Assembly: GCA_001786955.1 (NCBI GenBank)
Contig: MFUM01000004.1
Location: 4,457 to 68,456, forward strand
Length of the DNA: 64,000 nucleotides
Direction: 5' to 3'
Origin: Candidatus Nomurabacteria bacterium RIFCSPHIGHO2_12_FULL_42_19
Lineage (GTDB): Bacteria > Patescibacteriota > Minisyncoccia > Phycocordibacterales > UBA9973
The notes under the pieces are model-generated. The model did no database searches. It saw only the letters and a program-made list of their open reading frames with translations, and was not told the origin of the DNA. The position numbers were made by a program, and so were the translations under genes. This document shows, in pieces, positions 35,481 through 38,391 of the stretch. The first letter of the stretch is position 1. Every line of letters begins with the position of its first letter.

Positions 35481-35513
35481 TTATATATCAATCTCCGCCA
35501 GCTTGGCGTTGGA
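35481..35513 (-). repeat. Orphan duplicate of the gyrB 3' end (encodes [10 protein letters not shown]), in frame directly after the doc stop codon
   Basis: A 14-nt identical core ATATCAATCTCCGC is shared with 36295..36308. The flanking codons are synonymous but recoded (TCC AAC GCC AAG CTG versus TCA AAT GCA AAA TTA). Confidence 0.7.
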
Positions 35514-35957
35514 TTATTTTGTTGCATCGTAATCTTCAATATTCTCTTCAATAAAAGAATTTATTATATTCATAATATTATGTCTTTCTTCTGGTTTGCT
35601 TTCAGCAACTTTACAGGCAAATTGATAGATATCTTGGTTGGGAGTAGAGAGCCATTTGCCATTTTGAACAAGAAAAAATAGCAGTGTTGTAACTGCAATT
35701 CTTTTATTGCCGTTTTGAAAGGGGTGATTTTTTACCATCAAATAAAAGAGTATTGCTGATTTCCCGATAAGGCCTTCGTATAAACTTTTTCTATCAAAAG
35801 TTTGAAATGGTGTTGCAATACAACTTTCCAATTTATCTGGAAAACGCGTTTCAAAGTCAGGAATTGGTTCATTCCATTCCATAAATTCCTTGGCGAGTTG
35901 AAAAGCGATATATTCCACATCTGCCAGATTAATACGTTTAATCGTTTGACGTGCCAT
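35514..35957 (-). CDS. doc: Doc (death-on-curing) / Fic-family toxin
   Basis: 147 aa. HPFQNGNKRIAVTTLLFFL matches the Doc motif HxFx(D/N)GNKR. Confidence 0.8.
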   Translation of the reverse strand: MARQTIKRINLADVEYIAFQLAKEFMEWNEPIPDFETRFPDKLESCIATPFQTFDRKSLYEGLIGKSAILFYLMVKNHPFQNGNKRIAVTTLLFFLVQNGKWLSTPNQDIYQFACKVAESKPEERHNIMNIINSFIEENIEDYDATK

Positions 35958-35967
35958 AAAATTTTAA

Positions 35968-36252
35968 TTATTCTTTTCCGAGTTTTCGCAATGCGGGACC
36001 ATATTTCTTTACCACACGCTTAACAACATCTTCTATATCCTTTTTGCGACGATCTGGCACAAAAACGCCTAAAATGGTCTCATATTCTTCTCTTGGAATA
36101 ATATAATTTCTTCCAATTTTTTCAGCATGTATTTGGCCTGACCGAATCTTCTTAAAAATAGCAACTCTGGAAACACCAAGAAGTTTCGCTATTTCCGGCG
36201 CAGAAAAGTACTTTTTGCTCTCTCCTTCAAAAATATGCTTATTTTTCAACAT
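35968..36252 (-). CDS. Excisionase-family helix-turn-helix DNA-binding protein (candidate antitoxin or regulator for Doc)
   Basis: 94 aa. YFSAPEIAKLLGVSRVAIFKKIRSGQIHAEKIGRNYIIPREE resembles the Xis/AlpA-like HTH (TIGR01764 pattern). Confidence 0.65.
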   Translation of the reverse strand: MLKNKHIFEGESKKYFSAPEIAKLLGVSRVAIFKKIRSGQIHAEKIGRNYIIPREEYETILGVFVPDRRKKDIEDVVKRVVKKYGPALRKLGKE

Positions 36253-36260
36253 ATATATAG

Positions 36261-36276
36261 GTTAACATATGTTAAC
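36261..36276. promoter_or_regulatory. Perfect 16-bp palindrome GTTAACATATGTTAAC, the putative operator of the HTH-Doc operon
   Basis: It lies just upstream of the HTH gene start, next to a TATATAT -10-like stretch. Confidence 0.5.
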
Positions 36277-36291
36277 TCATAAATCAATGGG

Positions 36292-38391
36292 CTAGATATC
36301 AATCTCCGCTAATTTTGCATTTGATTGGATGAAAGATTTGCGGGGAGGGACTTCGGAGCCCATGAGGATGTCAAAGATTTTATTCGCTTCCTCTGCATCA
36401 GAAATATCCACGCGCTTGAGAACGCGATGTGCGGGATCCATCGTCGTCTCCCAGAGTTCTTCCGGATTCATTTCACCGAGACCTTTGAAACGCTGGATAT
36501 GTATTTTGTTAGGTTTAGCCCCGACGTTCTCCTCAGGAGAAGTCGGAGTCCCGACCCCTTCAGGCGTCGGGAGTTCTTCCACTTCCTGTATTTCACTCAC
36601 GTCCGCGTTCTTGCCGACAATTTTTATTTTTTCATTATCGGTGTATGCGTAAGAAATCTCTTTCCCCTTTTTTATTTTATAGAGTGGTGGCTGGGCAATA
36701 TAAATATACCCGGCATCAATCACTTGCCTGAAATATCTGTAGAAAAGAGTCAGAAGCAATGTACGGATATGTGAACCGTCCACGTCGGCATCGGTCGCAA
36801 TAATTATTTTATGATAACGAATTTTCTCCAGGTCAAAAGTATCCCCGATAGATGTGCCCATCGCAATAACTAAAGATTTAACTTCTTTGGAAGCAAGCAT
36901 CTTATCTATGCGCGCGCGCTCCACATTTAAAATTTTTCCGCGTAGTGGCAATATCGCCTGGGTGCGGCGGTCCCGTCCTTGTTTTGCCGAACCGCCTGCC
37001 GAGTCTCCTTCCACTAAGAATAATTCCGATTCTGAAGCATTTTTGCTTTGGCAGTCTGCCAATTTTCCGGGCAAAGTCATCCCCTCAAGCGCACCCTTGC
37101 GAAGCACTGAATCCTTGGCTGCCTTGGCCGCTTTGCGGGCCTTTAGGGCCAGAATTGACTTGTTTATTATAGATTTGGCGTCATCCGGGTTTTCTTCCAG
37201 AAAGTTCGCGAATCCCTCGCCGAATACGGTCGCCACGGCGCCCTGAGCTTCCATGCTTCCCAATTTTCCCTTGGTCTGCCCTTCAAATTGTATCTCGCGA
37301 AGCTTGACCGAAATAACTACCGTCAAACCTTCCAGGACATCTTCGCCCGTAAATCCGCCTTCGGACTCTTTCATCATTTCATTTTTCTTACAGTAGGTGT
37401 TGAGCGTTCTGGTAAGCGCCGTCTTAAAACCGGTTACATGCGTCCCGCCCTCCTGGGTGAAAATATTGTTGGCGAAAGGGAAAATCCTGTCCACGATATC
37501 ATCCACATACTGCAGGGCTATCTCTACTCCCACGCCATCCAGTTCTCTTTCAATATAAAAAATATTATTCTGGACCGGTTTGACAAATTTATTGTAATAC
37601 TTTACCAGAGAAATCAGTCCGCCTTCAAAATAGAAAGCAACAGAGGGAAGCTCAAGCCCAAGTTCGCGGAAATAAAATACATCCTCGTCATTGAGCCCCT
37701 TTTTATCGTCCCAGCCGCGGGCGTCAATTATTAAAATCTTCAATCCTTTCACCAAATAGGCTTGTTGGCGAATGTGGCTGATGACCGTGTTCCAGTCAAA
37801 TACAATCTTACCAAAAATTTCCTGGTCGGGCTCAAAAGTAATTATGGTTCCGTGCATCTTTGATGCCCCGTTTTTTTTTACAGCGAACTTTTTCTTGCCT
37901 TTAGAATATTCTTGAATATATTTTCCGCCATCCCTATGCACTTCCGCCTTGCAATAGATGGAAAGCGCGTTTACCACCGATGCGCCGACTCCGTGTAAGC
38001 CTCCGGAAACTTTATACCCGCTATTTTCGCCGCCGAATTTTCCTCCGGCATGCAGCGTCGTCATCACGGTTTCCAGCGCGGAAACTTTTGTTTTTTTATG
38101 CATATCCACCGGAACGCCCCGGCCGTTGTCCGCCACGCGAATACGGTTGCCCGGAAGAAAAACAATTTCAATGTCATTGCAAAAACCTCCCATCGCCTCA
38201 TCGCGGGAATTGTCAAAAATCTCCCATATTAAATGATGAAGCCCTTCCGGCCCTGTAGTGCCAATATACATGCCTGGACGGCGCCTGACGGGCTCCAGGC
38301 CCTCTAGAACGGATATGTCAGAGGCATCATAATGGTGCCCTTTTTCGGCACCTTTTTTTGCTCCTTTTTCGTCTTTTCCTCCCTTTGCCAT
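36292..38391 (-). CDS. gyrB: DNA gyrase subunit B
   Basis: 699 aa. GHKL ATPase, Toprim ([15 protein letters not shown]) and [13 protein letters not shown]-rich hairpin insert encodes [20 protein letters not shown]. Confidence 0.9.

What the first reader, a model, noticed from the sequence alone, without database searches (positions are those of the whole stretch)
35481..36330. HTH-Doc toxin cassette integrated at the 3' end of gyrB, flanked by a duplicated, synonymously recoded gyrB terminus
On the minus strand the order is gyrB, then a 16-bp perfect palindrome operator GTTAACATATGTTAAC, then an excisionase-family HTH protein (94 aa), then a Doc/Fic toxin (HPFQNGNKR). Immediately in frame after the Doc stop codon comes a second copy of the last ten gyrB codons plus stop ([10 protein letters not shown]). 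The two copies share a 14-nt identical core (ATATCAATCTCCGC) but use different synonymous codons on either side. This is the signature of a site-specific integration that regenerates the 3' end of the target gene, as seen for islands at tRNA/tmRNA genes. Here the target would be gyrB, which I have not seen reported as an integration site. The HTH protein would be a non-Phd antitoxin/regulator for Doc.
Basis: partly seen in the sequence, partly recalled or inferred. Interest (0 to 1): 0.75.

Follow-up and report, generated by a model that had tools for sequence, protein, structure and literature searches.

The report
Orphan gyrB tail beside toxin-antitoxin pair
A small toxin-antitoxin gene pair sits right after the essential gyrB gene of an uncultivated groundwater bacterium and is followed by a silent-recoded spare copy of gyrB's last ten codons. 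Comparison with about 180 related loci shows this is most likely a scar of recombination between related genomes, not the footprint of a dedicated integrase.

Summary
On the minus strand, gyrB ends [11 protein letters not shown] 16-bp palindrome, a 94-aa HTH_17 protein and a 147-aa Doc toxin follow. Directly after the Doc stop lies a second [10 protein letters not shown]. The two copies differ at 8 of 33 bases, and all 8 changes are silent. Four independent assemblies carry the same junctions.

The integrase/att interpretation is only partly supported.
- The HTH-Doc module lies in the gyrB/thrS gap in about 14 related species, mostly without an orphan.
- The two nearest gyrB relatives have an empty site, with gyrB and thrS stop-to-stop.
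- Orphan gene ends recur elsewhere, with other cargo and other genes (thrS, UDG, typA, rpsJ).
- Orphan lengths vary from 16 to 134 nt, some copies are decaying, and the joint sits at the cargo's edge.
- No recombinase is in the cargo or was found among the ORFs of the 64-kb window that were scanned. The window does encode type IV pilus and ComFC-like uptake genes.

Best reading: a scar of one-sided homologous recombination with an illegitimate join, that is, displacement of the gene's 3' end. HTH-Doc is a conserved two-gene family: all 79 related loci that held DNA upstream of Doc had the pair. This is a new variant of a known kind and of moderate interest.

The parts
36292..38391 (-). gyrB, 699 aa, complete
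   Evidence: Pfam HATPase_c, DNA_gyraseB, Toprim and DNA_gyraseB_C. Synteny pheS-pheT-gyrB->|<-thrS is conserved in relatives.
36292..36324 (-). Functional gyrB terminus, the last 10 codons plus TAG. The five variable codons all end in A or T.
   Evidence: Sequence TCAAATGCAAAATTAGCGGAGATTGATATCTAG.
36296..36309 (-). 14-nt run GCGGAGATTGATAT, identical in both copies
   Evidence: The same run starts the short orphans in L011 and L095, but it is also the commonest codon choice in the clade.
36253..36291 (-). Module promoter/operator region. It starts 4 nt after the gyrB stop and includes the palindrome GTTAACATATGTTAAC at 36261-36276.
   Evidence: The stretch TTGATTTATGAGTTAACATATGTTAACC is conserved in about 14 species with different left flanks. 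A promoter-like site lies at 36275-36248.
35968..36252 (-). 94-aa HTH_17 (excisionase-type) DNA-binding protein, the putative antitoxin and autorepressor
   Evidence: Pfam HTH_17 1e-7 and TIGR01764 3.7e-8. A homolog precedes Doc in all 79 of 80 loci that held upstream DNA.
35514..35957 (-). 147-aa Doc-family toxin with motif HPFQNGNKR
   Evidence: TIGR01550 2.1e-15 and Pfam Fic 1.1e-10. Matches PDB 9vzc, a death-on-curing family protein. 5065 homologs were found.
35481..35513 (-). Orphan copy of the gyrB terminus, 10 codons plus TAA. It abuts the Doc stop, and its five variable codons all end in G or C.
   Evidence: All 8 of the 33-base differences are silent. It is present in four independent assemblies.
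35218..35430 (-). 70-codon ORF between the orphan and thrS. It is a doubtful gene and possibly part of the same recombined tract.
   Evidence: No homolog outside this species among 5.8 billion proteins. No Pfam or NCBIfam hit. It shows a weak collinear similarity to the Doc 3' part, 17 of 18 nt.
33433..35208 (+). thrS, convergent with gyrB and the other border of the variable region
   Evidence: The gyrB-thrS gap ranges from -4 nt to 5.8 kb in relatives.

Best explanation
The HTH-Doc pair is a type II toxin-antitoxin module. It has its own promoter and palindromic operator, an HTH_17 antitoxin/repressor and a Doc kinase-type toxin. It lives in a variable spot between two convergent essential genes, gyrB and thrS.

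The orphan [10 protein letters not shown] is a recombination scar. DNA from a diverged relative recombined at this spot using homology on one side only. The other end was joined illegitimately at the border of the lineage-specific insert. As a result two gyrB termini from two lineages now lie either side of the module. This is homology-facilitated illegitimate recombination, or 3'-end displacement.

Two directions are possible.
(a) The module was resident. A module-free donor fragment, anchored in thrS, left its unpaired gyrB tail ligated at the module's right edge.
(b) The module arrived together with the donor's gyrB end and pushed the native end downstream.
The fixed joint at the module edge, with variable orphan length, favours (a). 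The difference is not settled.

Shown: the anatomy, the recurrence, the decay of orphans, the empty sites and the absence of a recombinase from the cargo and from the ORFs scanned. Inferred: the recombination pathway, its direction and the toxin-antitoxin activity.
For: 1. Two lineages contributed the two copies. All 8 differences are silent, and 0 of 300,000 random sets were. Both copies therefore evolved as coding gyrB ends. L060 shows the same pattern, with 8 of 11 codons recoded.

2. The module is an old resident of this spot.
- It lies in the gyrB/thrS gap in W, L087, L090, L093, L095, L097, L103, L105, L110, L112, L116 and L117.
- Module nucleotide identity to W is 78-82%, against 75-79% for full-length gyrB (one search gives 77-82% and 73-80% over a wider species set with the gyrB C-terminal region).
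- Most of these loci are scarless.

3. The site is a hotspot bounded by conserved genes. The gap ranges from -4 nt to 5.8 kb. The nearest relatives, L181 and L183, are stop-to-stop.

4. Scars recur independently of the cargo.
- gyrB orphans: L011 (19 nt, cargo a TrpR-like gene), L095 (19 nt, after module plus deaminase), L110 (about 25 nt, after module plus HAD), L060/L074 (33 nt, cargo a 50-nt hairpin) and L061.
- Orphans at the module's left edge: a thrS orphan in L097 (37-nt perfect repeat) and UDG-end orphans in L113 and L115.
- Other genes: typA (L168), rpsJ (L125), a small gene (L137) and a gene end plus terminator (L118).

5. The joint sits at the module's edge. It is within about 5 nt of the Doc stop in W, L118, L125, L137 and L168, while orphan length runs from 16 to 134 nt.

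6. Orphans decay: L110 has D->Y and L074 has a 1-nt insertion.

7. No integrase or transposase was found in the cargo, among the 30 window ORFs scanned or in the precomputed Pfam tables for about 10 kb either side. The window encodes a type IV pilus cluster and a ComFC-like protein, which fits DNA uptake.

8. There is a precedent for this model: strings of orphaned 3' regions in Rhs and T6SS loci (PMC5361080).
Against: - No close donor or strain-level empty allele was found. A metagenome scan for the predicted empty junction gave 0 hits, and the nearest gyrB is 91% identical. The event is therefore reconstructed, not observed.
- Illegitimate recombination of this kind is rare in experiments. 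Yet about 10 of 62 module loci show flanking repeats. That rate needs long persistence of scars, or selection.
- The sharp 5-codons-different / 14-nt-identical / 2-codons-different pattern in W, and the shared start GCGGAGATTGATAT of the L011 and L095 orphans, would also fit a crossover in a defined core.
- Microhomology at the W joint is at most about 3 nt, and even that is inferred.
- Natural competence of this organism is not demonstrated.
Confidence: 0.6

Rival explanations
1. A circular HTH-Doc element carries an attP that mimics the gyrB terminus. It integrates by site-specific (Campbell-type) recombination within the 14-nt core and regenerates gyrB, as e14 and phage 21 do at icd. The recombinase would be supplied in trans.
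For: - Direct repeats of the target's 3' end flank the module.
- The identical core GCGGAGATTGATAT is bordered by recoded arms.
- The L011 and L095 orphans begin at the same core.
- Perfect repeats occur in L097 (37 nt) and L125 (117 nt).
- A chimeric reconstruction (left arm of the functional copy plus right end of the orphan) is slightly closer to the nearest relatives: 4 differences, against 5-6.
- e14/icd is a precedent, with a 163-bp pseudo-icd duplicate (PMC6379469).
Against: - No recombinase is in the cargo, and none was found among the window ORFs scanned.
- Most module-bearing species have no repeat.
- Joint positions differ between cases.
- The same anatomy occurs at unrelated genes whose ends the element could not all mimic: typA, rpsJ, thrS and UDG.
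- The core is simply the commonest codon choice in the clade.
- The module has no conserved terminal motif beyond its operator.
Confidence: 0.13
2. The HTH-Doc module, and other small cassettes, form a discrete mobile unit moved by an unknown mechanism. That mechanism would insert into the 3' ends of housekeeping genes and duplicate a variable stretch of the target.
For: - The module edges are exact in at least 8 independent junctions. The Doc stop is the right edge and the TTGATTTAT promoter is the left edge.
- Repeats derived from the target occur at five or more different genes.
- Many metagenome contigs of about 1 kb hold only the module.
- L125 has an array of two toxin-antitoxin cassettes, each followed by a copy of the rpsJ end.
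Against: - A target duplication made at insertion cannot give 8 silent differences out of 8 or the recoded L060 pair.
- Repeat lengths of 16-134 nt fit no known transposition chemistry.
- There are no terminal inverted repeats and no enzyme.
- Exact edges are also expected if selection keeps the promoter-to-stop unit intact while the flanks turn over.
- Modules in different species are only 75-85% identical, so there is no recent spread.
Confidence: 0.1
3. The orphan is kept because it is useful. It might act as a -35 element or promoter for the downstream ORF, as a terminator for antisense transcripts, or as a decoy site.
For: - The best promoter-like match in the region (TTGATA, 17 nt, TATGAT; 10 of 12) uses the orphan as its -35 element.
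- A terminator-like hairpin on the plus strand lies inside the orphan.
- The orphan is perfectly intact.
Against: - Counts of promoter-like sites are no higher than in shuffled sequence: 5 found, against 3.5 +/- 2.1.
- The downstream ORF has no homologs.
- Orphans in relatives decay (L110, L074) and differ in length and position.
- Most module-bearing species lack an orphan.
Confidence: 0.04

Closest known systems
Homology-facilitated illegitimate recombination, and 'C-terminal displacement' with orphaned 3' regions in Rhs / CDI / T6SS effector-immunity loci (Kirchberger et al. 2017, PMC5361080, citing Prudhomme 2002, de Vries & Wackernagel 2002 and Jackson 2009)
   Same: - A conserved upstream gene acts as the anchor.
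- A new 3' end plus cargo sits next to it, and the displaced 3' fragment is retained downstream.
- No dedicated recombinase is involved.
- Scarless replacement is commoner than scars.
- The retained cargo is one whose loss is harmful.
   Different: - Here the displaced piece is the last 5-10 codons of an essential housekeeping gene, not a variable toxin domain.
- The cargo is a toxin-antitoxin module, not an effector-immunity pair.
- The organism is an uncultivated Patescibacterium.
- The direction of transfer is unresolved.
e14 and phage 21 integration into the 3' end of icd in E. coli (Hill et al. 1989; summarised in PMC6379469 and PMC3530522)
   Same: - The insertion lies inside the 3' end of a protein-coding gene.
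- The gene stays intact because an alternative 3' end is supplied.
- A pseudo 3' fragment is left at the far side.
   Different: - Those elements are prophages of about 15-40 kb (size from my own knowledge) with their own integrase and a fixed att core.
- Here the cargo is 0.8 kb with no recombinase.
- The joints vary and many targets are used.
Phd-Doc type II toxin-antitoxin system of phage P1
   Same: - The Doc toxin belongs to the family (TIGR01550) and has the motif HxFx(D/N)(A/G)NKR.
- A small upstream partner gene lies 10 nt away.
- A palindromic operator sits at the promoter.
   Different: - The partner is an HTH_17 (excisionase/MerR-like) protein, not Phd/YefM.
- The module is chromosomal, wedged between essential genes.
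- Its activity is untested.
Chromosomal integron cassette arrays and dif/Xer-exploiting modules
   Same: - Small promoter-bearing toxin-antitoxin cassettes sit in arrays separated by repeated sequence (L125).
- The location is a recurrent hotspot.
   Different: - The repeats are copies of the neighbouring gene's own 3' end, not attC or dif sites.
- No IntI was found.
- The operator palindrome has no 11-6-11 dif layout.

Membership tests
Doc-type type II toxin-antitoxin module | Toxin with the Fic fold and the Doc motif HxFx(D/N)(A/G)NKR | tested here: met
   TIGR01550 at 56.9 bits (cutoff 38.65) and Pfam Fic at 42.6 bits (cutoff 24). The motif HPFQNGNKR is present. PDB 9vzc, a Doc family protein, matches.
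Doc-type type II toxin-antitoxin module | Small adjacent upstream partner gene, conserved as a pair | tested here: met
   There is a 10-nt gap between the two genes. A homolog of the 94-aa protein precedes Doc in all 79 of 80 metagenome loci that held upstream DNA, across 53-100% Doc identity.
Doc-type type II toxin-antitoxin module | Antitoxin of the Phd/YefM family | tested here: not met
   The partner matches HTH_17 and TIGR01764 excisionase only. It has no Phd/YefM hit and no PDB relative.
Doc-type type II toxin-antitoxin module | Toxicity that is neutralised by the partner, and autoregulation at the operator | not testable with these tools
   This needs co-expression and DNA-binding assays. 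Only the conserved palindrome GTTAACATATGTTAAC is shown.
Integrase-mediated island in the 3' end of a gene (e14/phage 21-icd type, tRNA-island type) | Direct repeats made of the target's 3' end flank the insert | tested here: met
   The 33-nt copies lie at 36292-36324 and 35481-35513.
Integrase-mediated island in the 3' end of a gene (e14/phage 21-icd type, tRNA-island type) | A tyrosine or serine recombinase is encoded in or next to the element | tested here: not met
   The cargo holds only the HTH and Doc genes. No recombinase family appears among the 30 ORFs scanned across the 64-kb window, or in the precomputed Pfam tables for the flanking genes. The rest of the genome was not searched.
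Integrase-mediated island in the 3' end of a gene (e14/phage 21-icd type, tRNA-island type) | The same core and crossover position in independent insertions | tested here: not met
   Orphans start 10, 10, 8, 7, 5.7 and 5.3 codons before the stop in W, L060/L074, L061, L110, L011 and L095. Most module-bearing species have none.
Integrase-mediated island in the 3' end of a gene (e14/phage 21-icd type, tRNA-island type) | Empty site in relatives, and excised circular form | tested here: inconclusive
   An empty stop-to-stop site exists in the nearest relatives, at 91% GyrB identity. No strain-level empty allele was found. Circles cannot be tested without reads.
Homology-facilitated illegitimate recombination / 3'-end displacement scar | A conserved anchor next to a variable region, with the displaced 3' fragment kept downstream | tested here: met
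   The gyrB and thrS borders are conserved and the gap runs from -4 nt to 5.8 kb. Orphans occur at both borders.
Homology-facilitated illegitimate recombination / 3'-end displacement scar | The two copies come from different lineages | tested here: met
   All 8 differences are silent in W. In L060, 8 of 11 codons are recoded, including AGT against TCC for Ser.
Homology-facilitated illegitimate recombination / 3'-end displacement scar | Short microhomology at the illegitimate joint | tested here: inconclusive
   The W joint could share AAT, and the L110 joint shares TAG/AAA with the natural HAD stop. Without the parental sequences this cannot be fixed.
Homology-facilitated illegitimate recombination / 3'-end displacement scar | Scars are neutral and decay | tested here: met
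   L110 has GAT->TAT, L074 has a 1-nt insertion, and L061 is partial.
Transposon with target-site duplication | Fixed short duplication, identical when made, plus terminal repeats and a transposase | tested here: not met
   Repeat lengths run from 16 to 134 nt. The W and L060 copies are recoded. There are no terminal inverted repeats and no transposase.

The most novel reading that the evidence does not exclude
The HTH-Doc pair, and perhaps other small cassettes of Patescibacteria, may be a discrete mobile unit. It would insert into the last codons of essential genes (gyrB, thrS, typA, rpsJ) and carry or regenerate the gene's end. The pathway would use no element-encoded recombinase, for example a host-encoded or annealing-based integration at short conserved gene ends. 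Essential-gene termini would then act as safe harbours. A weaker version also survives the evidence: the orphans are scars of failed 'curing' of an addictive module by transformation with DNA from module-free relatives.
Probability: 0.12. Interest if true: 0.8.

Novelty: new variant of a known kind. Interest (0 to 1): 0.5.

Why it matters
If the scar reading holds, this locus and its relatives give natural, sequence-level examples of one-sided homologous recombination with an illegitimate join in uncultivated Patescibacteria. The events occur at the ends of essential genes and often next to toxin-antitoxin modules.

That makes one idea testable from sequence data: that recombination with module-free relatives tries to delete such modules, and that addictive modules survive these attempts.

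It also matters for annotation. Short in-frame 'second ends' after a gene are relics, not att sites or coding extensions.

Finally, the work defines a widespread HTH_17-Doc pair as a toxin-antitoxin candidate with a non-Phd partner.

Tried and rejected
- **Assembly artefact.** Rejected. The junctions are identical in four independent assemblies.
- **Chance similarity.** Rejected.
- **Known RNA family in the spacer or hairpin of L060, L074 and L061.** No credible Rfam match. The folds are only mildly better than shuffled sequence.
- **Strain-level empty allele.** A metagenome scan for both possible empty junctions gave 0 hits. Viral-contig scans for the operator and the core also gave 0 hits.
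- **orf70 as a marker for sister genomes.** It has no homolog outside the species.
- **Codon usage to decide which gyrB end is native.** Inconclusive. The genome prefers A/T-ending codons by about 8:1 for the functional copy, but gyrB itself has GC3 of 0.50. Comparison with the nearest relatives is saturated.
- **Module tree against gyrB tree.** Pairwise identities all lie within 73-85% and r = 0.23, so the test is uninformative.
- **Doc acting on GyrB, by analogy with FicT toxins.** Considered and dropped. The motif is Doc-type (NKR). The linkage to gyrB holds only within one clade (Doc at least 75% identical), and more distant modules sit elsewhere.
- **Diversity-generating retroelement (template/variable repeat).** Rejected. 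The differences are not adenine-specific and there is no reverse transcriptase.
- **dif/Xer site.** Rejected. The operator lacks the 11-6-11 layout, and stop-to-stop junctions leave no room for one.
- **L101 mosaic thrS as direct proof of recombination.** Not usable. It may be a chimeric contig.
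Full report
**Source and setting**

The window comes from a Candidatus Nomurabacteria (Patescibacteria) genome. The same locus is in NCBI GCA_001787115.1 and in ENA and JGI groundwater assemblies. The region is housekeeping: ligA, uvrD, pheS, pheT and gyrB on the minus strand, convergent with thrS, then rpmF, nusB-NUDIX, rnc and smc.

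**1.

gyrB (36292-38391, minus strand) ends TCAAATGCAAAATTAGCGGAGATTGATATCTAG. The module starts four bases later and has these parts:
- a conserved stretch, TTGATTTATGAGTTAACATATGTTAACC, holding the perfect palindrome at 36261-36276;
- a 94-aa HTH_17/excisionase-type protein (35968-36252);
- a 147-aa Doc toxin (35514-35957; TIGR01550 2.1e-15; motif HPFQNGNKR).

The base after the Doc stop begins TCCAACGCCAAGCTGGCGGAGATTGATATATAA, which again reads [10 protein letters not shown].

The copies differ at 8 of 33 bases and every difference is silent. None of 300,000 random sets of eight substitutions was fully silent. The tail peptide pattern occurs nowhere else in six frames of about 1 Mb of related DNA, apart from true gyrB ends and one further orphan. 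Four independent assemblies carry both junctions.

Both copies therefore evolved as working gyrB ends in two different lineages. A duplication made on the spot cannot explain them.

**2. What relatives show about the module**

Eighty gyrB loci from species-representative genomes show that gyrB and thrS are convergent neighbours across this group. The gap between them ranges from an overlap of 4 nt to 5.8 kb. In several species the two stop codons abut. The two nearest GyrB relatives of the window, at 91% aa identity, have exactly this empty state, TAA|TTA.

The HTH-Doc module sits in this gap in about 14 species whose Doc is at least 75% identical. In the minimal form it exactly fills the space: gyrB, 52 nt, module, 6 nt, thrS in L103. 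Below about 72% Doc identity the pair is found elsewhere.

Module nucleotide identity to the window is 78-82%, against 75-79% for gyrB. No sampled species is a recent donor. Most of these species have no second gyrB end.

In all 79 of the 80 metagenome loci that held DNA upstream of Doc, a homolog of the HTH protein precedes Doc. The pair is therefore a conserved two-gene family with a non-Phd partner.

**3. Orphan gene ends recur, and not only with this module**

| Locus | Orphaned gene end | Length | Cargo between the copies |
|---|---|---|---|
| L060 / L074 | gyrB | 33 nt, recoded; frameshifted in L074 | 50-nt hairpin |
| L061 | gyrB | about 27 nt | about 50 nt |
| L011 | gyrB | 19 nt, perfect | 603 bp with a TrpR-like gene |
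| L095 | gyrB | 19 nt | module plus dCMP deaminase |
| L110 | gyrB | about 25 nt, with a D->Y change; joined at the natural stop of the HAD gene | module plus HAD hydrolase |
| L097 | thrS | 37 nt, perfect | abuts the module's left edge |
| L113, L115 | UDG | about 20 nt | same position as in L097 |
| L168 | typA | last 18 codons plus 10 nt | begins inside the Doc stop |
| L137 | small upstream gene | 134 nt | follows the Doc stop |
| L118 | gene end plus terminator | 81 nt | follows the Doc stop |
| L125 | rpsJ | short relic, then a 117-130-nt perfect copy | HTH-Doc, then RelBE, each followed by a copy of the rpsJ end plus terminator |

Exact repeats of at least 14 nt between the two flanks of the module number 26, against 3 in a reversed-sequence control. 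By local alignment, 8 of 62 non-redundant loci exceed the 99th percentile of a permutation null, once three mis-sliced loci are removed.

**4. What this pattern means**

Three regularities stand out.
- The joint on the cargo side is fixed at the edge of the lineage-specific insert. It lies within about 5 nt of the Doc stop, or at the promoter's left edge.
- The joint in the duplicated gene varies, from 16 to 134 nt before the end. For gyrB it lies 5.3 to 10 codons before the stop.
- The copies are identical in some cases and recoded in others, and some are decaying.

No integrase, resolvase or transposase is in any cargo. None was found among the 30 window ORFs scanned, or in the precomputed Pfam tables for about 10 kb either side of the cassette. 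The rest of the genome was not searched. The window does encode PilM, two T2SSE ATPases, PilC, a prepilin peptidase, pilins and a ComFC-like protein. This is the usual DNA-uptake set.

These features fit recombination that uses homology on one side and an illegitimate join at the border of homology on the other. This process is described for naturally transformable bacteria. It has been invoked for the strings of orphaned 3' regions in Rhs and T6SS loci (PMC5361080).

In the version I favour, the module is resident. A fragment from a module-free relative pairs through thrS up to the module's edge. Its unpaired tail, the donor's gyrB end, is trimmed and ligated there. This explains a fixed joint at the module and a short, variable tail. 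It also explains why scars sit next to a module whose clean deletion could be lethal.

The opposite direction is that the module arrives with a donor gyrB end. It gives the same final structure, and I could not exclude it. Codon usage, comparison with the nearest relatives and distance correlations were all uninformative. No parental allele was found.

**5. Rivals**

- **Core-specific Campbell integration, as for e14/phage 21 at icd (PMC6379469).** It would explain the identical 14-nt run and the common start of the L011 and L095 orphans. It lacks an enzyme, a fixed joint and consistency across species and targets. The run is also just the commonest codon choice.
- **A new cassette-mobility mechanism with target duplication.** It is suggested by the exact module edges at many genes. 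It cannot produce recoded copies, and no chemistry or enzyme is evident.
- **A functional orphan.** This is unlikely. Orphans decay elsewhere, promoter-like matches are no more frequent than in shuffled sequence, and the downstream ORF is unsupported.

**6. Verdict**

The comparative data move the cause from an integrase targeting gyrB to a recombination scar in a hotspot between two essential genes. The phenomenon recurs across Patescibacteria.

It is a new variant of known kinds (3'-end displacement, HFIR scars) and adds a well-defined HTH_17-Doc pair. Interest is moderate. Interest would be high only if a dedicated mechanism, or a systematic link between toxin-antitoxin modules and such scars, were demonstrated.

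Noticed in passing
L125 1142-2820 (same in L127): The order is tuf, rpsJ, then HTH-Doc, then a RelB/RelE pair. Each cassette is followed by a copy of the rpsJ 3' end plus its terminator. The outer copies are a 117-130-nt perfect repeat. The inner copy is a short relic that overlaps the Doc stop.
   Followed up: partly
L060 6700-6740 and L074 4545-4583: A 30-nt hairpin (CCCCGTAGTCAGCTTTGCTGTACT...GGGG) lies between the two gyrB ends. Its core is identical at 24 of 24 bases in two genomes whose gyrB is only 77% identical. It is bracketed by TCCAAC on both sides and has no Rfam match.
   Followed up: partly
L011 2206-2222 and 2657-2673; L087 5050 and 5512: A 132-aa TrpR/YerC-like gene is flanked on both sides by the palindrome TATCATATATGATA. 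It recurs in the gyrB-thrS gap of several species (L018, L077, L087).
   Followed up: partly
gyrB-thrS gap of L013, L019, L029, L087, L090, L093, L095, L097, L110, L112: The variable gap repeatedly holds small nucleotide-housekeeping genes: uracil-DNA glycosylase, dCMP deaminase, Ham1/ITPase and HAD hydrolase.
   Followed up: no
L101 2839-4075 (window about 34647, inside thrS): One JGI contig is 99.9% identical to the window for 2838 nt. Inside thrS it then switches to a short-form thrS, 78% like a distant lineage (L083). This is either a real mosaic allele or a chimeric assembly.
   Followed up: partly
window 35218-35430 (-): The 70-codon ORF has no homolog outside this species. It contains SKPEER (17 of 18 nt identical to Doc at 35586-35603) and a second short match collinear with Doc. 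It may be a relic of an older Doc gene.
   Followed up: partly
window 47497-59292: A type IV pilus gene cluster: pilins, prepilin peptidase, PilC, two T2SSE ATPases and PilM. A ComFC-like phosphoribosyltransferase-domain protein lies next to it. Together these are a likely DNA-uptake apparatus.
   Followed up: partly
L093 and L094 266-3655: gyrB of a related species carries an intein (1129 aa, Pfam Intein_splicing).
   Followed up: no
window 32079-33041 (-): A NusB-NUDIX fusion protein (320 aa), conserved in the relatives' loci.
   Followed up: no
L168 3325-3513: In the typA-linked module the HTH gene is truncated to its C-terminal third (62 aa), while Doc is intact. This is a possible decaying module.
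   Followed up: no
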